From: an uncultured bacterium
GTDB lineage: Bacteria > Ratteibacteria > UBA8468 > B48-G9 > JAFGKM01
Direction of reading: 5' to 3'
Length of the DNA stretch: 30,394 bases
NCBI GenBank assembly: GCA_964650875.1
Contig: CAZYYF010000001.1
Span: 2,037-32,430, forward strand
A program made the position numbers and the translations under genes. The notes beneath the pieces are model-generated. The model worked only from the letters and a program-made list of their open reading frames with translations. It did not search any database and was not told the DNA's origin. Shown here piece after piece: positions 4,151 through 22,906 of the stretch (position 1 is the first letter of the stretch; each line of letters starts with the position of its first letter).

Positions 4151-4629
4151 TTTTTATATTCCTTTAAAATTACTTCAACAGCTTCCCTGAAAGCCCCCTC
4201 TCCTCCTTTTTTTGAACAGATATAATCAGCTTTTTGCCGTATCTGCTCAGCAGCGTCTGCAGGAGCTATAGCAATACCTGCTTTTTCCATAACAACCATA
4301 TCCTGAAAATCATCTCCCATATAGCATATTTCTTCCCAGGAAGAACTATTGGCAGAAATGAATTTTTCTATCACCTTGGTTTTATTTTCTATGCCTTCAA
4401 AGTAGAAGTCTACGTCTAATTCTTTAAATCTTTTTTTAGTAGACTCAGATTTTTTCCCGCTTATGAGAACACTTTTTATCCCACTATTTTTTAAAAGATT
4501 GAAAGCCATGCCATCTTTTATATTAAAAAACCTGCACAGTTTGCCATTTATGTAAAAAATCCGCCCGTCGGTCAGGACTCCATCTATATCTGATACAAAA
4601 AATCTGATGTTTTTTACTTTTTTTCTCAT
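4108..4629 (-). CDS. kdsC: KDO 8-phosphate phosphatase (HAD)
   Basis: DIDGVLTDG, FNIKDG, YMGDD and KGGEGAFRE. Confidence 0.93.
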   Translation of the reverse strand: MRKKVKNIRFFVSDIDGVLTDGRIFYINGKLCRFFNIKDGMAFNLLKNSGIKSVLISGKKSESTKKRFKELDVDFYFEGIENKTKVIEKFISANSSSWEEICYMGDDFQDMVVMEKAGIAIAPADAAEQIRQKADYICSKKGGEGAFREAVEVILKEYKKWEDALKKFFASCL

Positions 4630-4644
4630 TTTGCATCTTTAGAT

Positions 4645-5640
4645 TTAATATTCAACCTTAAAATCTTTTTTACCAAGAAGGTCATGTAGATGAACAATGC
4701 CTTTGGGCGTTTTATCCTTATTCAGTATCACAAGACATGTTATTTCCATCTTTTCCATTATTTCCAGGGCTCTTATCGCAAGACTTTCTTCATCTATCGT
4801 TTGGGGATTAGTGGTCATACATTCATATGTATATGTATCGGATATATCTGTGGTTTTATTCAAATATCTTCTTATATCTCCATCTGTTAGAATACCCTTA
4901 ACTTTTCTGTTTTCGTCTACTATAAGAGTCAAACCAAGGTTTTTCTTGTTTATTTCTTTCACTGCATCTTTTAGCTTTGATTTTAAGTTTACAAGAGGTA
5001 TTTTCGTGCCTGTCTGCATGACATCTTTTACCTTGAGCATCAACCTTCTGCCAAGATTGCCTCCAGGATGAAAAAATGCAAAATCTTCTTTTTGAACACC
5101 TTTTATTGCCATAAGCGTAAGTGATAGAGCATCTCCTAACACAAGAGCACAGGTTGTACTGGAAGAAGGAATAATTCCAAAACTATCGGCTTCCTGTATT
5201 TCTCCGGTGGCTATTGTTATATCACTCTGGATTCCTATACAAGAAAGAGGAGAACATGTAAATGATATGATCCGTGCACCTATTTTTTTTATTGAAGGCA
5301 GTATTCTGATAATTTCTTCGGTCTGTCCACTATTAGATATAACAATGACGATATCATTTCTCGCTACCATCCCTAGGTCCCCGTGAACTGCTTCTCCAGG
5401 ATGCATGAAAATAGAAGGTGTTCCTGTGCTTGCAAGGGTAGCCGCTATCTTTCTTCCAATAATACCACTTTTACCTATACCTGTTACTATCACCTTGCCT
5501 TTACACAGATATAGCAGTTCTACAGCGTCTGCAAAACTTTCTCCAAGTTTTTCCCTCAAATACTGGAGATTTACACATTCAATCTCGATGACTTTTTGTC
5601 CATAAGACAACAATTTGTCTTTCTTATGTTTTGGCAGCAT
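4645..5640 (-). CDS. kdsD: Arabinose 5-phosphate isomerase (SIS + 2 CBS domains)
   Basis: TGIGKSGIIGRKIAATLASTGTP, HPGEAVHGDLG and FHPGGNLG, followed by a CBS pair. Confidence 0.95.
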   Translation of the reverse strand: MLPKHKKDKLLSYGQKVIEIECVNLQYLREKLGESFADAVELLYLCKGKVIVTGIGKSGIIGRKIAATLASTGTPSIFMHPGEAVHGDLGMVARNDIVIVISNSGQTEEIIRILPSIKKIGARIISFTCSPLSCIGIQSDITIATGEIQEADSFGIIPSSSTTCALVLGDALSLTLMAIKGVQKEDFAFFHPGGNLGRRLMLKVKDVMQTGTKIPLVNLKSKLKDAVKEINKKNLGLTLIVDENRKVKGILTDGDIRRYLNKTTDISDTYTYECMTTNPQTIDEESLAIRALEIMEKMEITCLVILNKDKTPKGIVHLHDLLGKKDFKVEY

Positions 5641-6442
5641 AGTATATCTCTTTAAGTTGCTTTAAGATTTCTTGAATCTCATTTAATTTTAGCATATTAG
5701 GTCCGTCAGATAAAGCATGTTCTGGGTCAGGATGAACTTCCATAAACAAACCGTCACATCCAACTGCAATAGCTGCTTTTGCCAGGTAAGGAACATATTC
5801 TTTATTTCCGCCCGAACAACCTCCAAGTTTACCTGGCTCCTGAACACTATGGGTAGCGTCGTAAAATACAGGGTATCCAAAATTTCTCATTATAGGTAGA
5901 GAACGGAAATCTGTAACAAGCGTATTATATCCAAAAGTTGTGCCTCTTTCAGTGATAAATACATCTTTATTCCCCGTAGAAATGACTTTTTCTATGATGT
6001 TTTTGACATCCCAGGGCGAGAGAAACTGACCTTTTTTTATATTTAGAGGTTTGCCTGTAGCTCCACTTTTTACAAGAAGGTCTGTCTGCCTGCATAAAAA
6101 TGCCGGTATTTGAATCGCATCTACTATTTTACTAACAATATCTACCTGGTTTACACAATGTACATCTGTAATTACAGGTAGACAAAATTTTTCTTTTACC
6201 TTGGACAATAATTCAAGTCCTTTGTTAATTCCAGGACCTCTGTATGAGTGAATTGATGTTCTATTGGCTTTGTCAAATGACGATTTAAATATAAAAGGAA
6301 TATTTTCTTCAAGACAGACTTTTTTCAAAAACTCAGCACTTTTAAAAAGGACATCCTCATTTTCTATTACACAGGGGCCTGCTATAAGGCAAAACATTTC
6401 ACTGCCAATTTCTATTGTGCCAACTTTTATTTTTCTTACCAT
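5624..6442 (-). CDS. kdsA: KDO 8-phosphate synthase
   Basis: IAGPCVIE, KSSFDKANRTS, QIPAFLCRQTDL, NIKKGQFL, DATHSVQ, EVHPDP and ALSDG. The start was moved to the ATG at 6442 (MVRKIKVG), which avoids overlap with the HIT gene. Confidence 0.96.
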   Translation of the reverse strand: MVRKIKVGTIEIGSEMFCLIAGPCVIENEDVLFKSAEFLKKVCLEENIPFIFKSSFDKANRTSIHSYRGPGINKGLELLSKVKEKFCLPVITDVHCVNQVDIVSKIVDAIQIPAFLCRQTDLLVKSGATGKPLNIKKGQFLSPWDVKNIIEKVISTGNKDVFITERGTTFGYNTLVTDFRSLPIMRNFGYPVFYDATHSVQEPGKLGGCSGGNKEYVPYLAKAAIAVGCDGLFMEVHPDPEHALSDGPNMLKLNEIQEILKQLKEIYYAAKT

Positions 6443-6462
6443 GTTGTATAATGTGCTTTTTA

Positions 6463-6801
6463 TTAACCTGGAGGCCAACTCATTGGTCTTCCACCCAAAA
6501 GATGTACGTGCAGATGTTCAACTGACTGTCCTGCATTTTTGTTTGTGTTTATTACAACCCTGTAACCCGACTGTTCAATCTGTTGTTGTCTGGCTATTTC
6601 AGACGTAAGACAGAGTAAAGAACCTAACATCACTTTATCTTTAGTTTCCGAAAGACTGGATATGTGTTTCTTAGGAATTATAAGTATATGGACAGGAGAT
6701 TGTGGGTTTATATCTCTAAAGGCAAGGAAATCTCCATCCTCATAAACTTTATTGCAAGATATTTCACCAGAAACCATTTTACAGAAAATACAATTTTTCA
6801 T
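6463..6801 (-). CDS. hinT: Histidine triad nucleotide-binding protein (HinT/PKCI-like)
   Basis: CIFCK, DINPQSPVHILIIPKKH, AGQSVEHLHVHLLGGR and C-terminal WPPG. Confidence 0.9.
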   Translation of the reverse strand: MKNCIFCKMVSGEISCNKVYEDGDFLAFRDINPQSPVHILIIPKKHISSLSETKDKVMLGSLLCLTSEIARQQQIEQSGYRVVINTNKNAGQSVEHLHVHLLGGRPMSWPPG

Positions 6802-6821
6802 TTTTTTCCATCTGCGGAAAA

Positions 6822-8786
6822 CTAAAGTTTTTTTGTAACCTTGACGTTCATATAAGACTGGATGATATCACCCTCTTCCAAATTATTGAAATGAGCAATG
6901 CCTATTCCACATTCTGTGTTTAATTTTACCTCCCGTACATTTTCCTTAAATCTTTTTAAGCTCGTTATGCTACCTTGATAAATAATTGCACCGTTTCTTA
7001 TGATCCTACAGGAGGAATTCCGTATTATCTTGCCTTCTGTAACTATGCATCCTGCTACTGTTGAATTATCCGAAAGCCTGAATACCTGTTTTACCATTGC
7101 CTGTCCTAAGAGAACTTCTTTTTCTTCTGGAACCAGCATGCCTTCCACAGCATTTTTAATGTCTTCTGCCAGGTCGTAAATGATTTTATACATACGGACC
7201 TCGACTTTTTCTGAACGGGCTATCTCTTCTACATTCTTTGTAAGAGGCACGTTAAATCCTATAACAATGGCATTTGCAGCAGACGCGAGAAGAATATCTG
7301 ATTCAGATATAGGGCCGGCTTCCGAATGGAGAATAGAAATTTTTACTTCGGTAGAAGGGATTTTTTCTATAACATTTTTTATAGCTTCTATAGAACCTAC
7401 ATAATCAGTTTTTATTATCAGTTTTATTTCCTTTACACTACCCTTTTGAATTTCTGCATAAAGGTCTTCTAATGTAATATTTTTTATTCCGGATGTTTTA
7501 CTCGCAGTCATTGATTGTATATCTTCAACCTTTTTTCGCGCTGTTTTTTCTGAATCAACAACATAAAACTTATCTCCTGGCCTTGTAATATTTTGTGCAC
7601 CGAGTATCTCTACGGGTGTTGAAGAACCCGCAGTAGACAATTTATTGTTCCAGTCATCTATCATAGCCCTTACCTTACCGTATGTTTTTCCTACGATAAA
7701 TGGGTCTCCTATTTTTAACTCGCCTTTTTGTATAAGCACTGTTGTGGTAGGGCCTTTTGCTTTATCCATGTAAGATTCTATCACGGTGCCTTCTGCTGGT
7801 CCCACACAGGAAGCTTTCAATTCCAGCATCTCTCCCATAAGAAGTATCATATCAAGTAGTTCTTTTATGCCTTGCCCAGTAATAGCAGAAACATTGACAA
7901 CTACAGTGTTTCCACCCCATTCTTCGGGGACAAGACCGTGTTCAGCAATCTGTTTTTTTACCCTGTCAATATTGATATTTGGTTTATCTATTTTATTTAA
8001 CGCTACTATAATCGGAACATCCGCAGATTTGGCGTGATTTATAGCCTCTATCGTCTGGGGTTTTACTCCATCATCAGCAGCTACTACCAGAACCACTATG
8101 TCTGTAATCATAGCTCCTCTTGCTCTCATTGCCGTAAAAGCCTCATGCCCTGGTGTATCAAGAAAAACAATAGAACCTTCCGGACGTTTAACCTTGTAGG
8201 CACCTATTTTCTGAGTAATCTGTCCAAATTCTTTTTCAGCTATGGCACTTTTTCTAACTGCATCAAGTATTGTTGTTTTTCCGTGGTCAACATGGCCCAT
8301 AAGGGTTACAACCGGAGCCCTCGGAACAAGATGCTCTTCTTTTACCTTTTCTTCAGCCCTGACAGGAATTTCGGGTTTTATTATTTCAGCTGTATATCCA
8401 AAGAATTTACAGATATTCTTTATGGTCTCTTTACCGGGAGATTGATTGATATTAGTTACCAGTCCCAGTGATAAAAGATATTTAAGTATATCTGAAGAAT
8501 CAACATTGAGTTTTTCAGCAAGAATTTTAATGTTTTCCGTACCTTCCAGCCTAATTTTTTTCTCTTCTGCTTTTTTTTTAACCAGTTTTTTCTCGGTCAA
8601 GGTTTTTTGACGACTAACCGCTTGGGAAGGTTTTGCTTCTTTTCTGAAAAATGTCTCTACAATTTCTGCTTCCTCTTCGGATAAACCGCTTACACTTTTT
8701 TTATTCTTTATCCCTGCTTGTTTAAGAATATCCAGAATCTCTTTGGCTTCTTTCTTATACTTTTTCGCTATCTGATATACTCTCAT
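6822..8786 (-). CDS. infB: Translation initiation factor IF-2 (654 aa)
   Basis: [33 protein letters not shown] and NKID. The likely start is the ATG at 8786 ([10 protein letters not shown]2_N domain), preceded by AAGGGAG. Confidence 0.97.
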
Positions 8787-13741: not shown

Positions 13742-14774
13742 TTTTTTTTACGAGAGGTTTATCTACCGTAAAAAATCCCTTGTTTTCAAAACTCTTTCAT
13801 TTTTGTTGATACCCTTTTCTTTGTTTTATCTACTAACTATAAGCCTTATGAAATTGTTCATACGTCCTAAAAAGTATTCTTTTCCTATTATCAGTGTGGG
13901 AAATATAGTAACAGGAGGAACAGGAAAAACCCCTTTGGTAACCTATCTTTCCGAAAGATTCATAAGAGATAATTTTAAGGTTATAGTATTATCTTCTGCC
14001 GCAGAAAAAAGTATAAAAAAATATTCTTCAACTGAAAGGGATGATGAACTCCGTATGCTTAAAGAGCAACTGCCAGGTATAATAGTAGAATCTAAACGTA
14101 GAGATAAACTTATAAGCGTAGAAAAAATCGCGTACAGCAACAAAGTTATAGCTATTATTGACGATGGTTTCCATTCACATGCTATTAAAAAAGATGTTGA
14201 TATTCTCATAATTGACGCCTCCAATCCATTTGACAATCACCTCATTATACCATCAGGACTTTTGAGAGAACCTGTATATTTTGCGAAAAGGGCAGATGTT
14301 TTTGTGCTTTCTCACCCTTATATGGTTCCAAGAGAACAGTTAGATAAGATTGCTACAAAATTGAAAGGGTTCGGTAGACCTGTTTTTGTTATGGACTATG
14401 AGATAAAAGGATTGAAAAGTGATAAAGGCTCTCTGCCTTGTCTTGAGATAGACGGTAAAGAAATTATAGGGCTGGCAGGATTGGGTAACCCAAGAAACTT
14501 TTTTTACTTGCTGACTAAACTTAACCCAGTGAAAATTCACCCTATAGTCTATCCTGACCATTTTTCTTACAGAACCGAGGATATTGAGCGGATTGCTCTC
14601 GCACGTTCAAAAAATAATGCTTCCTATATCATTACTACTGCAAAGGATTATGTGAAGTTGAAAAAAATTGTCGGAGAGTTACCTGTTTTTTATCTGGATA
14701 TTAGAAGCAAAATGGAAAATTTCTACGAAAAAAAAGATTTTGACAGATTTATACGTTCTATGTTAAAATTATAA
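13716..14774 (+). CDS. lpxK: Tetraacyldisaccharide (lipid A) 4'-kinase
   Basis: ISVGNIVTGGTGKTP, IIDDGF, PSGLLREP, YPDHF and TTAKD. Likely start is the ATG at 13716. Confidence 0.9.
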   Translation: MRIYNPFFDFFYERFIYRKKSLVFKTLSFLLIPFSLFYLLTISLMKLFIRPKKYSFPIISVGNIVTGGTGKTPLVTYLSERFIRDNFKVIVLSSAAEKSIKKYSSTERDDELRMLKEQLPGIIVESKRRDKLISVEKIAYSNKVIAIIDDGFHSHAIKKDVDILIIDASNPFDNHLIIPSGLLREPVYFAKRADVFVLSHPYMVPREQLDKIATKLKGFGRPVFVMDYEIKGLKSDKGSLPCLEIDGKEIIGLAGLGNPRNFFYLLTKLNPVKIHPIVYPDHFSYRTEDIERIALARSKNNASYIITTAKDYVKLKKIVGELPVFYLDIRSKMENFYEKKDFDRFIRSMLKL

Positions 14775-14847: not shown

Positions 14848-15783
14848 ATGGGATTTGGACCTGCCAAATTTATAAGGGAAAAAATAAAAGAGCTGGATAA
14901 AAAGACTGAAGGGCAAAAAGTAATTGTCGCGACATCAGGTGGAGTTGACAGTATGACCTGTGCTATGCTTACATTCAAAGCCATAGGCAACAGACTCATA
15001 GTGCTATATCTGGATAATGGATTGATGAGACAGGGAGAAACCGAAGAAGTAAACAATTTTTTTGCTAAAATGGGTATAGAATTGCAGATATGGGATGTTA
15101 AAGAGAAATTTTTTGATGCCCTTAAAGGTAAGAAAGACCCTGAAGAAAAAAGAATAGCGTTCAGGGATATTTTTTATAAAACCCTCAGACAGGCAATAAA
15201 AAGTTATTCTGCTGAATTTCTTGTGCAGGGAACAATCGCAGCAGATATAGTAGAGACACAAAAGGGCATTAAAACCCAGCATAATGTGCTTTCTCAGATA
15301 GGAATAAATCCTGCCACTTATGGACTGAAAATTATTGAACCTCTGAAGGAACTATATAAACCACAAGTAAGAATGGTGGCAAAACAGCTTGGGTTGCCGA
15401 AAAAAATTTATGAAAGGAAACCTTTTCCTGGTCCAGCGTTAGCTACAAGAATTATCGGAGAAGTTGTCCCTGACAGAGTAGAAAAGGTGAGAATTGCGAC
15501 TATGATTGTAGAAGATTTAATCAAAGAAAGAAATGTGTTTCAGGTTTTGGCTGTCCTTTTGTCTGATAAAGCCACAGGTAACATAGACGGCAAAAGAATT
15601 TATGGGGATATTATTGCAATAAGGGCAGTTGAATCAAAAGATGCTATGACTGCTACACCGTGTAAACTTCCGTGGACAAAGCTTGAAAAAGTTAGAAATA
15701 AAATCCTTGCAGAGGTTCCAGGAGTGGTGAAGGTTGTCTATGATATTACTCCAAAACCACCAAGCACTATTGAATATATCTGA
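14848..15783 (+). CDS. guaA: GMP synthase, ATP-pyrophosphatase subunit only (subunit B type, no glutaminase domain)
   Basis: The PP-loop ATSGGVDS lies about 30 aa from the start. Also LVQGTIAAD, KTQHNV, EPLKELYK, PFPGPALA and YDITPKPPSTIEY. Length 311 aa, versus about 510-525 for fused GuaA. Confidence 0.93.
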   Translation: MGFGPAKFIREKIKELDKKTEGQKVIVATSGGVDSMTCAMLTFKAIGNRLIVLYLDNGLMRQGETEEVNNFFAKMGIELQIWDVKEKFFDALKGKKDPEEKRIAFRDIFYKTLRQAIKSYSAEFLVQGTIAADIVETQKGIKTQHNVLSQIGINPATYGLKIIEPLKELYKPQVRMVAKQLGLPKKIYERKPFPGPALATRIIGEVVPDRVEKVRIATMIVEDLIKERNVFQVLAVLLSDKATGNIDGKRIYGDIIAIRAVESKDAMTATPCKLPWTKLEKVRNKILAEVPGVVKVVYDITPKPPSTIEYI

Positions 15784-15829: not shown

Positions 15830-17170
15830 TTGGAAAATCCGCGAATATTGAATGAAAACTGTGGGATATTTGGTTTATATGCCGTAGATACATCAAGCAC
15901 AGTGGCAAAAAACATATATTACGGTATTTTTAAACTTCAGCATCGAGGACAAAAATACTGTGGCATAGCTTCTTATGGTAATGATATAAATCTAATAACC
16001 CATAAGGGTTTTGTAAGGCATACATTTTCTTCAGATGACCTTGATTCCATGGACGGTAATTTTGGTATAGGACATACAAGTTTGAAAGAAAGGCAGCCAA
16101 TAATCCTTATATCAAAAATAGGGAAGTTTGCAATAGCTTTTAGTGGCAATATCATTAATGGAATGCAACTACGTAAAGAATTAGAGCAAAAAGGACATTC
16201 TTTCAGTACGGAATCTGATATTGAGCTTTTAGGTAAACTTATTGCCTGCTATGATAATTTCGGTGAAGGTATATTCCAGTTGAGCAATAAGATAAAGGGT
16301 TCATACAGTCTGGTAATACTTTCAAAAGATGGTATATATGCTGCAAGAGACAAGAACGGTTTTAAACCGCTTATCCTCGGTATGAATAAAAACCATTTTG
16401 CTGTTTCTTCCGAATCAAGGTCATTTGACTTGCTGAAGATTGATATCTTAAGAGATGTTAAACCTGGAGAAATAGTCTTTATAGATAAAAAAGGTATCCA
16501 GACAATAGCAAATGTTGAGTGTCATAAACCGGCTTTTTGTGCTTTTGAATGGGCATATATCGCATCAATAGATTCAGTGATAGAAGGCATACCTGTAATA
16601 GAAGCGCGAGAAAATTTCGGAAGTAAACTTGCTTCTTATGATAAAAACATTGAAGCAGACATTGTTGCCCCAGTGCCTTTTTCTGGAATAGGATGCGCTC
16701 TTGGATATCACAAAACATCAGGTATCCGATATGAAGAGGTTTTTCTTATAGACAGGTTTGCCAGCAGGAGCTACACCCCTTTGACACAAGAAAGTAGAGA
16801 CGAAGAAGCTAAAATTAAACTTTCTGTAATAAAATATAACGTCAAGGGGAAAAAAATCATTTTGTGTGACGATTCTATTGTAAGAGGAACACAAATAAGG
16901 TTTAAGGTTAAAGAATTGAAAGAAGCAGGTGCAAAAGAGGTTCATGTAAGGATTGCCTGTCCTCCACTTATAGCACCATGTTTTTACGGTATTTCAACCC
17001 GTTCGTATAATGAACTTGCCGCCAGGAAATTTTCTGTAGAAGAGATAAGAAAAAAAATTGGGGCGGATACCTTGAAGTATAATTCCCTTGAAGATTTTAT
17101 TTCATCTATAGGATTACCTGCAGATAAACTCTGTTTATCCTGCTTTACAGGACAAATGGTAGAGGAATGA
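15830..17170 (+). CDS. purF: Amidophosphoribosyltransferase (Fe-S type with propeptide); divergent glutaminase domain
   Basis: TTG start after AAGGAG gives MENPRILNEN-CGIFG. Also LQHRGQ, ARDKNGFKPL, DDSIVRGT, and Fe-S cysteines (CAFE, PCFYG, CLSC). Confidence 0.9.
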   Translation: MENPRILNENCGIFGLYAVDTSSTVAKNIYYGIFKLQHRGQKYCGIASYGNDINLITHKGFVRHTFSSDDLDSMDGNFGIGHTSLKERQPIILISKIGKFAIAFSGNIINGMQLRKELEQKGHSFSTESDIELLGKLIACYDNFGEGIFQLSNKIKGSYSLVILSKDGIYAARDKNGFKPLILGMNKNHFAVSSESRSFDLLKIDILRDVKPGEIVFIDKKGIQTIANVECHKPAFCAFEWAYIASIDSVIEGIPVIEARENFGSKLASYDKNIEADIVAPVPFSGIGCALGYHKTSGIRYEEVFLIDRFASRSYTPLTQESRDEEAKIKLSVIKYNVKGKKIILCDDSIVRGTQIRFKVKELKEAGAKEVHVRIACPPLIAPCFYGISTRSYNELAARKFSVEEIRKKIGADTLKYNSLEDFISSIGLPADKLCLSCFTGQMVEE

Positions 17171-18216
17171 GAAAAAGTAAAATAGTTTTTGAAACTGGAG
17201 AGTGTGTAGAAGGATATCAGATTCTTAATCCTCTTAAAGAAAAGATAGAAAGGGTTATTTTTGATACAAGAATAGTAGGATATGAGAAGACATTGAGCTG
17301 TCCAGAATATAAAGATAAAATTGTCTGTTTATCATATCCCCTAATTGGCAACTATGGTATTAGTTATCAGGATATTGAAACAAAGGATGTTTTCCCATCA
17401 GTACTCATCATATCAGAGTTAAGTAGTATTGCAAGTAATTATAGGAGTAATATTCCATTTGCAGATTTTATCTTAAAAACAAAAATCTCGGTTATTTCCA
17501 AAATAGATACTCAATATATTACTAAAATAGTTAGAGACAATTGTAACCTGTGGGCATCTATTGTGTCTTTTGACGCAGATGTGAAAAAAGTCCTTTGTGA
17601 AATTAAAGAAAAAAAACAATCTTTCTCAGAGGAAAAGGTTCCCTTTTATGTACCAGAAAAAAGAGCCTCTGTTATGGGTTTAAGGAAACATAATATAGCC
17701 GTTTTGAACCTCGGTTTGAAAAATACCGAGATGTTTCATCTTGCATCTTCAGGTTACGGGATAAAAATAATAAATCCAGCAGACGGGGATGCAAAACAAC
17801 AGATTCTTTCTTCAAATGCCCTCTATATCACATCAGGACCATCTCATAAGATTCTTATCTCTCAGATGGCGGCTTTTCTAACAAACATCCTTGGAAAACT
17901 GCCTGTTTTCGGTGTGGGTATAGGCCATTTAATTCTCGGAAAAGCACTTGGAGGAAAAATTGCCAACAGTACTGTGAATCATTATGGTGTGAACCATCCT
18001 GTTGTGAATCTCAAGAAAAAGAATTGTATTATTACCGAACAGATGCACAGCCTGATATTACAGAGAGAAGACCTGCCTGAAGATATAATAGAAACCATCC
18101 ACATGCATGATGGAACAGTTGAGGGGTTATTCCACGAAGAGATGAAAGCTTTTTCTGTCAGTTTCATCCCACAGGAAGAACATTTCCAGAGGTTTTTTTC
18201 ACTGATAGAGGAATAA
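17167..18216 (+). CDS. carA: Carbamoyl-phosphate synthase small subunit homolog lacking the catalytic Cys/His/Glu
   Basis: N-domain [11 protein letters not shown]...YPLIGNYG, plus NHPV and DGTVEGL. Coupled to purF (ATGA) and directly upstream of carB. Active-site motifs read GVGIGHL and SVSFIPQ. Confidence 0.88.
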
Positions 18217-18217
18217 A

Positions 18218-21200
18218 ATGCCAGGAACAAAAGATATTCACAAAATAATGATAATAGGTTCAGGCCCAATAATTATAGGACAGGCTTGCGAGTTTGACTA
18301 TTCAGGTTCGCAGGCATGCAAGGCTTTGGAAGAAGAAGGATATCAGGTGGTACTTGTCAATAGTAATCCTGCGACTATTATGACAGACCCTGATATGGCT
18401 GAACGTACATACCTTGAACCTCTTACTGTAGATATGCTTAAAAAGATAATAGAAAAAGAAAAACCTGATGCCATACTTCCTACTCTCGGAGGACAAACAG
18501 GATTGAATCTGGCAACATTTCTTTATAGAGACGGAATTCTTGAAAAGTACAATCTAAAGGTTATAGGAGCTGACATTAAGAGTATTGCTATTGCCGAGGA
18601 CCGTGAGATTTTCAAAAATACTATGTTAGAGATTGGTATAAAGGTTCCAGAAAGTGTACTTGCTTATGATTTGCAAGAAGGAATAAATGCAGCGAAGAAG
18701 ATTGGTTTTCCCTTGATCTTGAGACCTGCCTACACACTTGGAGGTACAGGAGGTTCTGTTGCTTATAATCTGGAAGAACTTGAAAAAAAACTTGAGTATG
18801 GCCTGGAAACAAGCCCTATCCATGAGGTCCTTGTAGAACAGTCTGTTTTAGGATGGAAGGAGATAGAATTTGAAGTTATGAGAGATTGCCGTGATAACGT
18901 CATCATAATAACATCTATGGAAAACGTTGACCCAATGGGTGTTCATACCGGAGATAGTATAGTTGTTGCCCCTGCACAAACACTTAGCAGAAAAGAATAC
19001 GAAAAACTAGTTGATTATTCCAAAAAAATTATAAGAACAATAGGGGTAGTTGGAGGTTCTAACATACAGTATGCTGTAAATCCTGAAAATGGTGAAGTTG
19101 TTATCATAGAAGTCAACCCGAGAGTCTCAAGAAGTTCGGCTCTTGCTTCGAAAGCTACAGGGTTCCCTATAGCCCGTATTGCTTCCAAACTTGCAGTTGG
19201 ATTCACCCTTGATGAGGTTACGAATCATCTGGTGGGAAATACAACCTGTTTTTATGAACCTACTGTTGATTACTGTGTTTTTAAAATACCAAGGTTTACT
19301 TTTGAAAAATTTCCGACGGCAGAAAAAACTATAGGCACTTCAATGAAAGCCGTAGGAGAATCTATGGCCATTGGTAGAAATTTCCGCGAAGCCTTGCAGA
19401 AAGGAATAAGGTCACTTGAAATAGGCAGGTATGGTCTTGGCTGTGATGGAAAAGATAGATGGAATACATCACACAAGTTTACTGAAGATGAAAAAGAACT
19501 GATAAAAAAGAGGATATCCATTCCAGATGATGAAAGACTTTTTTATGTCAGATACGGCCTTCTTGCTAATCTACCGATTGAAGAAATTCATAGTCTTTCG
19601 AACATAGATATGTGGTTTCTGCATAATATAAAGAAAATTGTAGATATGGAACAAAAACTTTATAAATATGGAGATATCAATAAATTGCCTGATACATTGC
19701 TCTATGAGGCAAAAAAAACAGGTTTTTCAGACCATCAGCTGGCGATACTTTTCAAAACAACAGAGAAAGCAGTTAGAGAAAAAAGAAAAGAAAAGAATAT
19801 TTTAAACGTTTTCAAGCTTGTAGATAGCACAGCAGGTGAATACAAAGCTGAAAAGCCATACTATTACTCTACATATGAAAAGTATGATGAAGGTAGATAT
19901 TCCCAAAAGAAGAAGGTTATCATATTAGGAGGAGGACCTAACAGGATAGGCCAGGGTATTGAGTTTGACTATTGTTGTGTCCATGCTTCTTTTGCTCTAC
20001 GTGAAGAAGGATATGAAAGCATTATGGTTAACTGTAATCCTGAAACTGTCAGTACCGATTATGACACCTCTGACAGATTGTATTTCGAACCTGTAACCGT
20101 TGAAGACGTGATGAATATCATAGACAAAGAAAAACCTGAAGGGGTAATACTACAGTTTGGAGGCCAGACACCTCTAAATCTTGCCATTTCCTTACAGAAC
20201 GAAGGTGTCAATATTCTTGGAACTAGCCCTCAAGCCATTGACATTGCAGAAGACAGAGAAAAATTCAGACAACTTCTTGAGAATCTCTCTATCAAACAGA
20301 CACAAAATGCGACAGCCATTTCGTTCAAACAGGCAGAGGCTATCGCTGCCCGTATAGGTTATCCAGTTCTTGTAAGACCTTCATACGTTCTTGGAGGCAG
20401 GGCAATGGAGATTGTCTATGACAGTAATTCTCTTAAATCTTTTATGCAGAAAGCAGTAGATATTTCTCCCGAACATCCTGTGCTGATAGATAAATTTCTT
20501 ACGGATGCAATAGAAGTGGATGTTGATGCTATCTGTGATGGAAAGATATGTGTTATAGGCGGAATTATGGAACATATAGAAGAAGCAGGGGTTCATTCCG
20601 GAGATAGCGCAATGGTACTGCCCCCTTATAGCCTGAGCAAAAGTGTTATATCCGAAATCGAAGAATCAACTAAAAAGATTGCCCTTGAACTCAACATAAG
20701 AGGGCTTCTGAATATACAGTACGCTGTAAAAAACAGTGATGTTTATATACTGGAAGTCAATCCCCGCGCCTCAAGAACAGTACCTTTTGTAAGCAAGGTT
20801 ATAAACGTTCCCCTCGCCAAACTTGCAACAAAGATAATGACCGGTAAGACACTTATACAGATCGGATTTACGCAAACAGTTAGTCCCAACTTCTTTGCAG
20901 TTAAAGAATCTGTTTTCCCCTTTACAAGATTTCAAGGCATAGATGCTACTTTGGGTCCTGAAATGAGATCTACAGGAGAAGTTATAGGTATTGACCGAAA
21001 TTTTGAGATGGCCTATGCGAAAAGTCAGATTGCAGCAGGGCAGAAACTGCCTATTGCAGGAACTGTTTTTATCAGCGTAAAAGATAAAGATAAGCCTGCT
21101 GTTGTTCCTATTGCAAAAGGCTTTCGTGAAATAGGATTTGAGATTTTTGCCAGTTCAGGCACAGGAAAATTTTTGTTTGAAAAGGGATTAGATGTCAAAA

Positions 21201-21478
21201 TAATACCTAAGGTTTATGAAGGAACAAGACCAAATATTGTTGATTATATGAAAAATAACAAAATTTCTCTCATAATCAACACTCCTTCTGGTAAAAAAAC
21301 ACAAAAGGATATCGTATCAATGAGGAGTATTGCAGTCAACAGAAATATTCCACTTATAACTACGATACCTGGTGCTAAATCTACGCTGGTTGCTATAAAA
21401 AAAATAAAGGAAGATGATATTAACGTTAAAAGTATCCAGGAGTACCATGCAGAATTAAAAATAAATAGGTGCGGATAA
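18218..21478 (+). CDS. carB: Carbamoyl-phosphate synthase large subunit
   Basis: [17 protein letters not shown], two ATP-grasp domains (GVHTGDS, GVHSGDS; [18 protein letters not shown]) and an MGS-like C-terminal domain. Confidence 0.98.
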
Positions 21479-21530: not shown

Positions 21531-22160
21531 GTGAAATTGACAGGAATCGTTAATTATGGAGTAGGCAATATATACAGTGTGGTTTCCGCAGTGAAAAAAT
21601 GCGGAGAAGAATCTTTTATCATTGAAAAACCATCTGATTTTTTAAAAGCGGATAAGATTATACTGCCAGGAGTTGGAGCCTTCGGTAAAGGTATACAACA
21701 CCTACAAGAATCTGGTATTAAGACCGCGCTTTTTGATATAATAAAAACAGGAAAGCCTTTCCTTGGAATATGTCTTGGGATGCAGATTCTGTTTTCTTAT
21801 AGTGAAGAAGGAGACTGCGAAGGATTAAATCTTATCAAAGGAAATGTTAGAAAGTTTGTTTTTCAACCGTTTCATAAGATGAAAGTCCCTCATATGGGTT
21901 GGAGTATTGTAAAAATAATAGAGCCAGGTAAAAAACTTTTTAATAATATACCAGATAATATGTGGTTCTACTTCGCCCATTCCTATTATGTGATACCTGA
22001 AGAATCAACAGTAATTGCCGCTACAACTAACTATGGTTATAGATTTGTTTCCGCAGTCAAGATGAACAATATAGTGGGGGTGCAGTTTCACCCTGAAAAA
22101 AGCGGGGATTGTGGATTAATATTTCTGAAGAACTTTCTGGAGGGAAGATGGCTACTGTAA
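21531..22160 (+). CDS. hisH: Imidazole glycerol phosphate synthase glutaminase subunit
   Basis: GTG start. [19 protein letters not shown] (Cys intact), VPHMGW, YFAHSY and QFHPEKS (His/Glu intact). Confidence 0.95.
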
Positions 22161-22906
22161 GGATTATACCATGTCTTGATGTAAAAGAAGGTAGTGTAGT
22201 AAAGGGTATCCATTTTGAAAATCTCATACAGGCAGGAGACCCTGTCGAACAGGCGGCATTTTACAGTAAAGAAAAAGCGGATGAGATTGTCTTTCTTGAT
22301 ATAAGTGCAACCATAGAAGGCAGAAAAACAATGGTGGATGTTGTGAAAAAAGTTGCAAGCGCAGTTTTTATACCTCTTACTGTTGGTGGAGGTATTAACA
22401 GCATAGGTGATATAGAAGATCTTTTAAAAGCAGGTGCAGACAAAATTTCGATAAATACCGCCGCGGTCAAAAATCCTTCATTGATAAAAGAAAGTACAGA
22501 TAAATTTGGGAGCCAGTGTATTGTTATAGCAATAGATGGCAAAAAAGTCGGCCCCGAAAAATGGGAAGTGTATATTGAAAGTGGGAAGACTCCGACGGGA
22601 AAAGATGTTGTTGAATGGGCAAAAAAGGTTGAAAAACTTGGAGCAGGAGAAATTTTACTTACCAGTATAGATATGGATGGTACCCAGAAAGGATACGACA
22701 TTGAAATGACCAGATCTGTTTCTAAAAACATCAGCATACCTGTAATTGCTTCGGGAGGAGCAGGTACTCTTGACCATCTTTATAAAGTCATAAAAGAAGG
22801 TGGAGCTGACGCTATTCTTCTTGCTTCTCTTTTACATTTCAGGAAGTATACCATATCAGAAATAAAACAGTATTTGAAAGACAAAGGACTGGATGTCCGC
22901 CTATAA
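22148..22906 (+). CDS. hisF: Imidazole glycerol phosphate synthase cyclase subunit
   Basis: [38 protein letters not shown] and PVIASGGAG. Likely start is the ATG at 22148. Confidence 0.96.

What the first reader, a model, noticed from the sequence alone, without database searches (positions are those of the whole stretch)
15830..16230. PurF keeps Cys1 but has lost the glutamine-binding Q-loop and oxyanion Asn
Seen: the propeptide and Cys (NEN-CGIFG) are present. The conserved GHVRY(S/A)TAG...(N/E)xQP is shortened by about 8 residues to GHTSLKERQP (16070-16099), and HNGN is FSGN (16139-16150). The PRT-domain motifs also drift (VPFSG for VPDSG; LIDRF for IKNRY). Established: Arg73/Tyr74, the 73-84 loop and Asn101/Gly102 are needed for glutamine use in E. 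coli PurF, and such mutants keep NH3-dependent activity. Inference: an ammonia-dependent or otherwise re-specialised PurF, with Cys possibly kept for autoprocessing.
Basis: partly seen in the sequence, partly recalled or inferred. Interest (0 to 1): 0.62.

Follow-up and report, generated by a model that had tools for sequence, protein, structure and literature searches.

The report
Glutamine-blind PurF paralog in ammonia cluster
This gene is a conserved second copy of PurF, the first enzyme of purine synthesis, that has lost its glutamine-binding residues; it sits in a duplicated gene cluster whose other enzymes have also lost glutamine use, so it probably works from free ammonia, though no member of its family has been tested.

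Summary
The ORF (best start TTG 15830, end 17170) is a two-domain, Fe-S-type PurF. It keeps Cys1 behind a 10-residue propeptide. The glutamine loop is shortened by 8 residues (GHTSLKERQP, 16070-16099) and the oxyanion Asn is Ser (FSGN, 16139-16150).

This is not a one-off loss.
- All 120 closest homologs share the short loop.
- Short-loop PurFs form one well-supported branch apart from canonical PurFs.
- In this small phylum, 25 of 42 genomes carry both a canonical PurF and this paralog ("PurF2"), 11 only the canonical one, and 5 only PurF2.

Relatives have two parallel clusters.
- Cluster A is purF-carA-carB-guaA, all canonical, often with purQ beside purF.
- Cluster B, this window, is guaA without its GATase domain, purF2, carA' with a dead Cys/His/Glu triad, and carB'.

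PurF2 keeps the PRPP loop, the flexible-loop Arg and all four Fe-S cysteines, and is under strong purifying selection.

Best reading (about 0.55): an ammonia-dependent phosphoribosylamine synthase in an ammonia-type isozyme cluster. The role of the invariant Cys1 is unresolved. The canonical cluster is missing from this 83%-complete assembly, and I could not tell loss from a gap.

The scan has met this family before on other DNA, mostly as Cys-less forms. No biochemistry exists.

The parts
14740..14769 (+). sigma-70-like promoter (TTGACA-18-TAAAAT with TG) ahead of cluster B
   Evidence: Best consensus match in the region, 11 of 12. It is a pattern match only and is not shown to be functional.
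14848..15783 (+). guaA-C: GMP synthase ATP-pyrophosphatase part only, with no glutaminase domain
   Evidence: TIGR00884 guaA_Cterm scores 321.7 bits, and NF000848 matches only positions 196-511. Relatives also carry a full-length guaA of about 505 aa elsewhere.
15830..17170 (+). purF2: short-glutamine-loop PurF paralog (446 aa from TTG 15830)
   Evidence: TIGR01134 scores 345.8 bits against a cut-off of 350. Best PDB match is 1ao0, E 1e-89. The AF2 model has pLDDT 89.6 and TM 0.88 to 1ao0. AAGGAG lies 8 nt before TTG 15830.
15830..15859 (+). predicted 10-residue propeptide (M)ENPRILNEN
   Evidence: Translation. The nearest homologs also have 10 residues before Cys. Removal of the propeptide is not shown.
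15860..15862 (+). Cys1 codon (Ntn nucleophile position)
   Evidence: Invariant in 45 aligned clade members. It aligns with Cys1 of B. subtilis PurF.
15935..15952 (+). LQHRGQ (Arg26/Gly27 motif), kept
   Evidence: Invariant in the clade.
16070..16099 (+). shortened glutamine loop GHTSLKERQP; Arg72, Tyr73, Thr75 and Gly78 (B. subtilis numbering) are deleted
   Evidence: 8-residue gap against 1ao0. The same gap is present in 120 of 120 homologs. It is modelled as a tight, confident hairpin between strands 72-78 and 85-89.
16139..16150 (+). FSGN in place of HNGN (oxyanion Asn to Ser)
   Evidence: Alignment. Across the clade the position is S 92, N 15, T 6, A 5 of 120.
16214..16225 (+). SDIE: the Asp127 equivalent is kept here but is not conserved in the clade
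   Evidence: Across the clade the position is Q 58, D 38, H 15, Y 6 of 120.
16538..16540 (+). first of the four [4Fe-4S] ligand cysteines; the others are at 16979-16981, 17132-17134 and 17141-17143
   Evidence: They align with B. subtilis C236, C382, C437 and C440 and are kept across the clade. C231 is nearly invariant, and C378, C429 and C432 are invariant, across the wider short-loop family.
16556..16576 (+). YIASIDS in place of YFSRPDS
   Evidence: F243/R245/P246 are at least 92% conserved in 132 canonical PurFs. In PurF2 they are I/T, S and V/M/I. From memory, this motif belongs to the nucleotide feedback site; I did not test that.
16673..16687 (+). VPFSG in place of VPDSG
   Evidence: Asp282 is Phe/Met/Asn in the clade.
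16745..16786 (+). PRTase flexible loop LIDRFASRSYTPLT
   Evidence: Arg311 is kept, while Phe313 is Tyr, Ile314 is Thr and Pro316 is Leu. This is the only region of the model with pLDDT below 50 (residues 303-311), as expected for a mobile loop.
16865..16894 (+). PRPP-binding loop CDDSIVRGTQ
   Evidence: D346-G351 are kept. The last Thr is an invariant Gln, a signature of the short-loop family.
17167..18216 (+). carA': CPS small subunit with a dead glutaminase triad
   Evidence: GVGIGH stands for GICLGH and SFIPQ for QFHPE (Cys269 Gly, His353 Ile, Glu355 Gln). The same state is found in all cluster-B copies of relatives. Its start overlaps the purF2 stop by 4 nt.
18218..21478 (+). carB': full-length CPS large subunit
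   Evidence: NF003671 scores 1620 bits. Relatives have a second carB in the canonical cluster.
21531..22906 (+). hisH (intact GICLGMQ) and hisF
   Evidence: TIGR01855 scores 220 bits and TIGR00735 scores 356 bits. The catalytic Cys motif is intact. The pair is linked to cluster B in families f1 and f3 but not in G027 or f4.

Best explanation
The gene encodes PurF2, a member of an old short-glutamine-loop branch of the PurF family. I read it as an active [4Fe-4S] phosphoribosyltransferase that makes phosphoribosylamine from PRPP and free ammonia rather than from glutamine.

It is co-transcribed, and probably translationally coupled, with carA'-carB', a carbamoyl-phosphate synthetase whose small subunit is catalytically dead. 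That arrangement resembles vertebrate CPS I. It also lies just downstream of a GMP synthase that lacks its glutaminase domain.

Together these form an ammonia-type copy (cluster B) of a canonical glutamine-type cluster (cluster A: purF-carA-carB-guaA) that most relatives also carry.

Shown:
- the sequence changes;
- their conservation;
- the paralogy;
- the two clusters;
- purifying selection on both domains;
- retention of the PRTase and Fe-S residues.

Inferred:
- use of ammonia;
- the physiological logic (skipping the ATP cost of glutamine synthetase when ammonium is plentiful, or separate regulation);
- the role of Cys1, which may only remove the propeptide.
For: 1. Glutamine site. Among residues at least 85% conserved in 132 canonical PurFs, the PurF2 clade deletes Arg72, Tyr73, Thr75 and Gly78. 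It varies Asn102 (S/N/T/A) and Asp127 (Q/D/H/Y). Variation within the clade indicates relaxed constraint rather than a rebuilt pocket. In E. coli PurF, Arg73 and Thr76 hold the DON carboxylate, and Tyr74 touches Ile335 across the channel (PMC7953260).

2. The synthase half is intact. The PRPP loop D346-G351, Arg311, Arg321, Lys328 and all four Fe-S cysteines are kept. The model has pLDDT 89.6 and TM 0.88 to 1ao0.

3. Selection. In 36 matched genome pairs, PurF2 identity is 0.60 (Ntn domain) and 0.74 (PRTase domain). For the canonical PurF of the same genomes it is 0.59 and 0.66.

4. Context. guaA-C, purF2, carA' and carB' are syntenic across family f1, and the purF2-carA'-carB' core persists in G027 and family f4. 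CarA' lacks Cys, His and Glu in every copy. Relatives hold a separate canonical purF-carA-carB-guaA cluster, often with purQ beside purF.

5. Sufficiency. G027 (93% complete, 40 contigs) has only PurF2, CarA' and GuaA-C, yet has PurD and PurQ. Its PurF2 lacks Arg72, Asn102 and Asp127, and also the Arg of RQP.

6. carB is linked to a short-loop PurF in an Elusimicrobia contig as well.

7. The organism is not glutamine-free. GlnA, HisH and a TrpG-like GATase are intact. The losses are therefore specific to this cluster.
Against: - No enzyme of this branch has been assayed.
- Cys1 and LQHRGQ are invariant in this clade. By contrast, many Cys-less relatives have let Arg26 drift. This argues that the Cys1/Arg26 apparatus still does something. 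A pure ammonia enzyme would not need it: E. coli Cys1 mutants keep ammonia activity, as summarised in PMC3261824.
- Several conserved, clade-specific changes lie in the PRTase half (D282F, T353Q, D387S, F313Y). They could mean a changed reaction rather than only a lost channel.
- Eleven of 42 genomes in the phylum do without PurF2.
- I could not inspect model coordinates, so geometric compensation in the pocket is not excluded.
Confidence: 0.55

Rival explanations
1. PurF2 still uses glutamine, or a smaller or different amide donor, through Cys1. The pocket would be rebuilt, with other residues such as Arg82 or Lys80 of the short hairpin replacing Arg73.
For: - Cys1, Gly2, LQHRGQ and Gly103 are invariant in the clade.
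- Arg82 is at least 90% conserved in 45 clade members.
- The Ntn domain is as conserved as that of the canonical PurF in the same genomes.
- Short-loop members without a propeptide (MCG...) also keep Cys.
Against: - Arg82 is Pro in same-genus G003, and Met in G027, where PurF2 is the sole PurF found.
- Among Cys-bearing short-loop representatives, that position is S, P, P, P, P, K or R.
- Asn102 and Asp127 positions vary within the clade.
- The lid loop and the channel pair Tyr74/Ile335 are missing.
- The neighbours CarA' and GuaA-C have lost glutaminase function outright.
Confidence: 0.13
2. PurF2 is a non-catalytic or regulatory paralog. It would form mixed oligomers with canonical PurF, or sense a metabolite through the altered Ntn domain and the altered nucleotide site.
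For: - It coexists with canonical PurF in 25 of 42 genomes and lies in tandem with one on an archaeal-like contig.
- The YFSRP motif is replaced. From memory, that motif belongs to the nucleotide feedback site.
Against: - The PRPP loop, flexible-loop Arg and Fe-S ligands are kept, and the PRTase domain is more conserved than in canonical PurF.
- Five genomes, including G027 at 93% completeness, have PurF2 as the only PurF. PurD is present in G027, G016 and G000 but was not found in G017; G052 was not checked.
- Its neighbour carA' has its own carB', so cluster B encodes enzymes rather than regulators.
Confidence: 0.12
3. PurF2 catalyses a different PRPP-dependent reaction. It would use another nucleophile or product, possibly coupled to CarB' (for example to a carbamate- or carbamoyl-phosphate-derived nitrogen).
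For: - The PRTase active-site region carries invariant clade-specific substitutions: T353Q, F313Y, D387S and D282F/M/N.
- carB-purF' linkage recurs across phyla.
- The gene is not in a pur operon here.
Against: - In PurF2-only genomes the rest of the purine pathway is present, and no other PRA source is evident.
- I can name no chemistry that has a precedent.
- The linkage is equally explained by shared regulation of ammonia-using enzymes.
Confidence: 0.1
4. Decaying pseudogene or assembly artefact.
For: The MAG is 83% complete in 178 contigs. TIGR01134 scores just under its cut-off.
Against: - The frame is open and full length.
- The same features occur in 120 of 120 homologs and in 30 of 42 genomes of the phylum.
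- Purifying selection is strong.
Confidence: 0.01

Closest known systems
Glutamine PRPP amidotransferase PurF, [4Fe-4S] type (B. subtilis, PDB 1ao0/1gph; Arabidopsis 6lbp; NCBIfam TIGR01134; EC 2.4.2.14)
   Same: - Ntn plus type I PRTase architecture.
- A propeptide followed by Cys1.
- LQHRGQ, the PRPP loop and four Fe-S cysteines.
- About 37% identity, TM 0.88.
   Different: - The glutamine loop is 8 residues shorter, without Arg72/Tyr73/Thr75.
- Asn102 is Ser, and the Asp127 position is not conserved in the clade.
- Flexible-loop Phe313/Ile314 are Tyr/Thr.
- YFSRP is YIASI.
- RGTT is RGTQ.
- It scores below the family cut-off.
- It sits with carA'B' and guaA-C rather than with pur genes.
PurF' of Crenarchaeota (Brown et al. 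2011, Biol Direct 6:63, PMC3261824)
   Same: A second PurF-like gene beside or alongside the true PurF. The authors proposed that it is an ammonia-dependent PRPP aminotransferase, which has not been tested.
   Different: PurF' is defined by lacking the N-terminal Cys, whereas this protein keeps it. I could not obtain crenarchaeal PurF' sequences, so I do not know whether they belong to the same short-loop branch. Cys-less (Ser1/Gly1/Ala1) members do fall inside that branch.
Ammonia-dependent carbamoyl-phosphate synthetase I of vertebrates (PDB 5dot, 6uel)
   Same: It keeps a glutaminase-like domain with a dead active site as a structural part of an ammonia-using synthetase. This is the same logic as CarA' next door and, by inference, as the Ntn domain of PurF2.
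   Different: It belongs to a different enzyme family, and its ammonia dependence is proven, whereas here it is inferred.
Paired glutamine- and ammonia-dependent isozymes (AsnB/AsnA; glutamine- versus NH3-dependent NAD synthetase NadE; stand-alone archaeal GuaAB ATP-pyrophosphatase)
   Same: One organism, or related organisms, carry both a glutamine-dependent and an ammonia-dependent route to the same product. This comparison rests on my own knowledge.
   Different: Here three such pairs are arranged as two parallel gene clusters that look like a single block duplication. AsnA is not homologous to AsnB, whereas PurF2 is a PurF homolog.

Membership tests
PurF, glutamine PRPP amidotransferase (EC 2.4.2.14, TIGR01134 equivalog) | Two-domain fold: N-terminal Ntn glutaminase domain plus C-terminal type I PRTase domain | tested here: met
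   Pfam GATase_7/GATase_6 plus Pribosyltran. The AF2 model has TM 0.88 to 1ao0 over 447 columns.
PurF, glutamine PRPP amidotransferase (EC 2.4.2.14, TIGR01134 equivalog) | N-terminal Cys nucleophile (after Met or propeptide removal) | tested here: met
   Cys at 15860-15862 aligns with Cys1 and is invariant in the clade. Processing itself cannot be tested here.
PurF, glutamine PRPP amidotransferase (EC 2.4.2.14, TIGR01134 equivalog) | Glutamine-binding residues Arg73, Thr76 and Asp127, and oxyanion Asn101 (E. coli numbering) | tested here: not met
   Arg and Thr are deleted and Asn is Ser. Asp is present here but is Q/D/H/Y across the clade.
PurF, glutamine PRPP amidotransferase (EC 2.4.2.14, TIGR01134 equivalog) | Glutamine loop (73-84) and hydrophobic channel contact Tyr74-Ile335 | tested here: not met
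   The loop is 8 residues shorter, Tyr is deleted and the Ile335 equivalent is Thr. The roles of these elements are taken from PMC7953260.
PurF, glutamine PRPP amidotransferase (EC 2.4.2.14, TIGR01134 equivalog) | PRPP-binding loop and flexible-loop Arg | tested here: met
   CDDSIVRGTQ at 16865-16894. Arg311 is kept.
PurF, glutamine PRPP amidotransferase (EC 2.4.2.14, TIGR01134 equivalog) | Score at or above the curated cut-off of the equivalog model | tested here: not met
   345.8 bits against 350. Paralogs in relatives score 314-361 bits and canonical copies 460-527 bits.
PurF, glutamine PRPP amidotransferase (EC 2.4.2.14, TIGR01134 equivalog) | Glutamine-dependent PRA synthesis | not testable with these tools
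   Needs an enzyme assay.
B. subtilis-type [4Fe-4S] PurF subclass | Four cluster-ligand cysteines (C236, C382, C437, C440) | tested here: met
   All four align and are conserved.
Archaeal PurF' (Brown et al. 2011) | Lacks the N-terminal Cys | tested here: not met
   Cys is present and invariant. PurF' is defined in PMC3261824.
Archaeal PurF' (Brown et al. 2011) | Second PurF-like gene coexisting with a true PurF | tested here: met
   25 of 42 genomes of the phylum carry both. In this assembly the canonical copy was not found.
Short-glutamine-loop PurF branch (unnamed; defined here) | 10-residue loop between GH and QP, RGTQ in the PRPP loop, and placement on the short-loop side of the tree | tested here: met
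   (99% SH-aLRT split).
Ammonia-dependent synthetases with a dead glutaminase module (CPS I-like logic) | Glutaminase residues lost while synthase residues are kept and under selection | tested here: met
   for PurF2; for CarA'.
Ammonia-dependent synthetases with a dead glutaminase module (CPS I-like logic) | Activity with NH3 and not with glutamine | not testable with these tools
   Needs an enzyme assay.

The most novel reading that the evidence does not exclude
Cluster B is a switchable, ammonia-fed nucleotide-synthesis module (GuaA-C, PurF2, CarA'-CarB') that runs in parallel with a glutamine-fed module. Within it, PurF2 is not a simple ammonia enzyme. Its invariant Cys1/Arg26 apparatus would act on a new nitrogen donor, or PurF2 would work physically with CarB'. 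That would account for the carB-purF' linkage that recurs across Ratteibacteria-like bacteria, Elusimicrobia and, according to earlier notes of this scan, syntrophs.
Probability: 0.12. Interest if true: 0.85.

Novelty: new variant of a known kind. Interest (0 to 1): 0.55.

Why it matters
PurF is a textbook glutamine amidotransferase, and it is the committed, feedback-controlled step of purine synthesis. This large, widely distributed branch is annotated everywhere simply as 'amidophosphoribosyltransferase'. If it really runs on free ammonia, three things follow.

- Metabolic reconstructions of many uncultured anaerobes mis-state their nitrogen and ATP budgets.
- The family offers a natural experiment on what the Ntn domain and the ammonia channel are for once glutamine is no longer used.
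- The paired clusters found here (glutamine-type purF-carA-carB-guaA against ammonia-type guaA-C, purF2, carA', carB') would be an unusually clean case of a whole set of amidotransferases being duplicated and converted together.

The Cys1-retaining form in this window is the most informative member for experiments. It separates the question 'is the nucleophile needed?' from the question 'is glutamine bound?'.

Tried and rejected
- Sole, decaying PurF: rejected by the paralog count in relatives and by purifying selection.
- Arg82 as a stand-in for Arg73: not supported by conservation. I could not test the geometry because model coordinates are not exposed to the Python box.
tblastn of the assembly finds single copies only. 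This stays open.
A profile search gave names instead.
- Riboswitch or other known RNA upstream of the cluster: no Rfam match in the whole window.
- HisH as a shared glutaminase for the cluster: considered unlikely. hisH-hisF is absent from cluster B in G027 and family f4, and G002 has lost hisH.
- Earlier-note idea that CarA' hides a frameshifted QFHP motif: not needed. All CarA' copies in relatives also lack HPE, and all lack the Cys, which lies far upstream of that site.
- Literature search for this paralog in Omnitrophota or Ratteibacteria, or for an ammonia-dependent PurF: nothing beyond Brown et al. 2011.
Full report
**What is at the locus**

The ORF covering the finding runs to 17170 on the + strand. 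Two in-frame TTG codons precede the Cys codon (15860-15862). TTG 15830 has AAGGAG 8 nt upstream and gives a 10-residue propeptide, (M)ENPRILNEN. The nearest homologs have the same propeptide length. I take 15830-17170 as the gene. Residue numbers below count from TTG 15848 (M-N-E-N-C5), as in the tool outputs.

The family matches are as follows.
- Pfam finds GATase_7/GATase_6 and a weak Pribosyltran match.
- NCBIfam TIGR01134 (purF) scores 345.8 bits, just under its cut-off of 350.
- The best solved relatives are the [4Fe-4S] PurFs of B. subtilis (1ao0/1gph, E 1e-89) and Arabidopsis (6lbp).
- An AlphaFold2 model from 45 clade sequences is confident (pLDDT 89.6). It superposes on 1ao0 with TM 0.88.

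**Check of the observation**

The PDB alignment shows an 8-residue gap where B. subtilis has GHVRYATAGGGGYENVQP. The window has GHT--------SLKERQP at 16070-16099. FSGN (16139-16150) stands opposite HNGN. VPFSG and LIDRF are also as described.

It is not noise. All 120 nearest database homologs (55-81% identity) carry the same 10-residue loop, GH[VT]SL[KR][DE]RQP. Where a source names them, they are MAGs labelled Omnitrophica, Ratteibacteria or 'bacterium'.

**What has changed and what has not**

I aligned three sets: 132 canonical PurFs (30 from relatives of this genome, 102 database representatives), 120 members of this clade, and B. subtilis PurF. I then listed the positions that are at least 85% conserved in the canonical set.

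Kept in the clade:
- Cys1, Gly2, LQHRGQ (Arg26/Gly27) and Gly103;
- the PRPP loop D346-G351;
- flexible-loop Arg311, plus Arg321 and Lys328;
- all four Fe-S cysteines.

Changed in the clade:
- Arg72, Tyr73, Thr75 and Gly78 are deleted.
- Asn102 is S 92, N 15, T 6, A 5 of 120.
- Asp127 is Q 58, D 38, H 15, Y 6 of 120.
- Phe243/Arg245/Pro246 of the YFSRP motif are replaced.
- Asp282 is F/M/N.
- Phe313 is an invariant Tyr, Ile314 is Thr or Leu, and Pro316 is replaced.
- Thr353 is an invariant Gln, and Asp387 is Ser.

In E. coli PurF, Arg73 and Thr76 hold the carboxylate of the glutamine analogue DON. Gly102 contributes to the oxyanion hole. The glutamine loop (73-84) and the PRTase flexible loop (326-350) close together, with Tyr74 against Ile335, to form the ammonia channel (PMC7953260).

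Every side-chain contact of glutamine is therefore missing or unconstrained in the clade, and both halves of the channel lid are altered. The synthase half is intact. In the model the short loop is a tight, confident hairpin. The only disordered stretch is the PRTase flexible loop.

**It is a paralog, not the organism's PurF in decay**

The window's genome is a 1.29-Mb MAG of 178 contigs, 83% complete, and this is the only PurF in it. Its relatives tell a different story. Among 42 genomes of the phylum that are at least 85% complete:
- 25 carry both a canonical PurF (about 430-527 bits) and this form (about 314-361 bits);
- 11 carry only the canonical one;
- 5 carry only this form (G000, G016, G017, G027, G052);
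- 1 carries neither.

The canonical copies of relatives have a normal GHVRYSTTGSS..NIQP loop and HNGN.

A maximum-likelihood tree of 99 sequences puts all short-loop proteins on one side of a branch with 99% SH-aLRT support. The single exception is an N-terminally truncated fragment. The relatives' canonical PurFs sit inside the canonical side. Identity between the two paralogs of one genome is about 36-41%, no higher than to B. subtilis. The split is therefore old.

The short-loop side also contains many branches that have lost Cys1. One is a large Ser1 group (MSG..., loop GIGVIS...QP, EDSIVRGTQ). Its members are annotated 'amidophosphoribosyltransferase' in Planctomycetota, Omnitrophota, Elusimicrobia, Firmicutes and archaeal MAGs.

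**Two parallel clusters**

The neighbourhood of this gene is conserved across the family. The order is cca, a TIGR00375-family gene, lpxK, guaA-C, purF2, carA', carB', hisH, hisF and LPS genes.
- guaA-C is the ATP-pyrophosphatase half of GMP synthase with no GATase domain.
- carA' has Gly for Cys269, Ile for His353 and Gln for Glu355.
- Every cluster-B carA' examined in relatives, up to class level, also lacks the Cys and the HPE motif.
- purF2 and carA' overlap by 4 nt, and carB' starts 2 nt after carA'.

In the same relatives, the canonical purF is followed directly by a canonical carA (GICLGHQ, QFHPE, about 480-515 bits). Next come a second carB and a full-length guaA (about 505 aa, 690-754 bits). 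purQ is often on the other side of purF, and glnA is often nearby.

So a block of amidotransferase genes exists twice. In one copy, all three glutaminase modules are deleted or inactivated. The core purF2-carA'-carB' persists in G027 and in a sister family. In family f3, carA'B' are absent and purF2 is followed by hisH-hisF.

Outside the phylum:
- An Elusimicrobia contig has an orphan carB, a 246-aa unknown gene and a Ser1 short-loop PurF in a row.
- A contig with archaeal marker genes has a Cys-bearing PurF2 directly upstream of a canonical PurF.

**Is PurF2 functional?**

I compared nine genomes that carry both paralogs, giving 36 pairs. Mean identity of PurF2 is 0.60 in the Ntn domain and 0.74 in the PRTase domain. 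For canonical PurF it is 0.59 and 0.66. Both domains of PurF2 are therefore under purifying selection, and its PRTase half is the more constrained of the two enzymes.

G027 (93% complete, 40 contigs) has PurF2, CarA' and GuaA-C but no canonical PurF, CarA or full-length GuaA. It still has PurD and PurQ. Its PurF2 lacks Arg72, Tyr73, Thr75, Asn102 and Asp127, and has Met where this window has the Arg of RQP. This is the best available argument that PurF2 alone can feed the purine pathway, and that it does so without a recognisable glutamine site.

The window's genome has PurD (491 bits) and a PurM-like gene. It has GlnA, an intact HisH (GICLGMQ) and an intact TrpG-like GATase. The organism therefore makes and uses glutamine. 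The losses are specific to cluster B.

**Most likely mechanism**

PurF2 is an active Fe-S phosphoribosyltransferase that takes free NH3 instead of NH3 tunnelled from glutamine. Three independent lesions in one co-directional, tightly packed cluster are most simply explained by one selective regime: domain deletion in GuaA, triad loss in CarA, and loop deletion plus ligand loss in PurF. That regime would be synthesis from ammonium. It saves the glutamine-synthetase ATP, and it allows regulation separate from the glutamine-type cluster. CarA' would be retained as a structural subunit, as in CPS I. The Ntn domain of PurF2 would be retained for folding, oligomerisation or regulation. These steps are inferred, and none has been assayed. 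I give this reading about 0.55.

**What does not fit**

Cys1 and LQHRGQ are invariant in this clade. Among Cys-less short-loop representatives, the Arg of HRG is kept in only about 6 of 15. The Cys1/Arg26 pair therefore seems to be selected as a unit.

However, some short-loop proteins keep Cys directly after Met.

The alternatives are:
- a residual or novel amidase activity;
- a regulatory role;
- a changed PRTase reaction, hinted at by the invariant T353Q, F313Y and D387S substitutions.

The conserved Arg of RQP is not a convincing replacement for Arg73. It is Pro in a same-genus relative, Met in G027, and varies among Cys-bearing representatives.

**Open point about this genome**

Canonical purF, carA, the second carB, full-length guaA and purQ were all not found in G000. 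In relatives these genes lie together. One missing contig in an 83%-complete MAG would explain all five absences, and so would one deletion.

**Comparison with what is known**

The closest characterised enzymes are the Fe-S PurFs (1ao0, 6lbp). The closest described concept is PurF' of Crenarchaeota: a Cys-less second PurF, proposed but never tested as an ammonia-dependent enzyme (PMC3261824). This protein fails the PurF' definition because it keeps Cys. It also fails the glutamine-site features of PurF proper.

I found no paper on the short-loop branch, on the two-cluster arrangement, or on Ratteibacteria or Omnitrophota purine synthesis.

Earlier notes of this scan describe Cys-less PurF paralogs and 'orphan carB plus glutamine-blind PurF' operons in other genomes. 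These are unreviewed AI notes. I independently confirmed the existence of Cys-less branches and one carB linkage outside the phylum.

**Verdict**

- The protein is a new variant of a known kind of enzyme.
- Interest is moderate. The family is large, mis-annotated and untested, and this Cys-retaining member, in a cleanly duplicated cluster, is a good experimental entry point.
- The scan has met the family before, and the ammonia-dependence idea has been in the literature since 2011.

Noticed in passing
window 17167-18216: CarA' has Gly, Ile and Gln in place of the Cys269/His353/Glu355 triad. The same dead state is found in every cluster-B CarA' of relatives, up to class level, and each has its own CarB'. 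This is a bacterial counterpart of the CPS I arrangement.
   Followed up: partly
window 14848-15783: Stand-alone GMP synthase ATP-pyrophosphatase without a GATase domain. Relatives also have a full-length guaA in the canonical cluster, and G027 has two GuaA-C copies and no full-length one.
   Followed up: partly
L077 (G002:C13) 6341-8390: In a same-genus genome (97% complete), cluster B has carA' and guaA-C adjacent with no purF2 between them, and hisH is missing between carB' and hisF. PurF2 can therefore be lost from the cluster.
   Followed up: no
L078 (G006:C4) 4174-7303: In the canonical cluster of some relatives, carB is split into two ORFs of about 520 aa each. Cluster-B carB' is a single gene of 1086 aa.
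   Followed up: no
L084 8001-10984: On a contig with archaeal marker genes (Pelota, RLI/ABCE1, ELP3, TYW3, Hjc), a Cys-bearing short-loop PurF2 (57% identical to the window's) lies directly upstream of a canonical 527-aa PurF.
   Followed up: partly
L085 3902-9410: On an Elusimicrobia contig, an orphan carB (no carA), a 246-aa protein with no family match and a Ser1 short-loop PurF lie in a row. carB-PurF' linkage thus recurs outside this phylum.
   Followed up: partly
G003:C201:1467-2462 (in L053): The CarA' of a same-genus relative has an in-frame TAG. This could be a pseudogene, a sequencing error or recoding.
   Followed up: no
G000:C25:8021-9013 (L008): The PurM-like gene of this genome scores 206.5 bits, below the TIGR00878 cut-off of 236.
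   Followed up: no
window 21531-22906: hisH and hisF follow carB' with no other his genes nearby and are followed by LPS glycosyltransferases. HisF also scores close to the WbuZ (glycosyl amidation) model, 290 bits against a cut-off of 299.7, so the pair may serve LPS modification rather than histidine synthesis.
   Followed up: no
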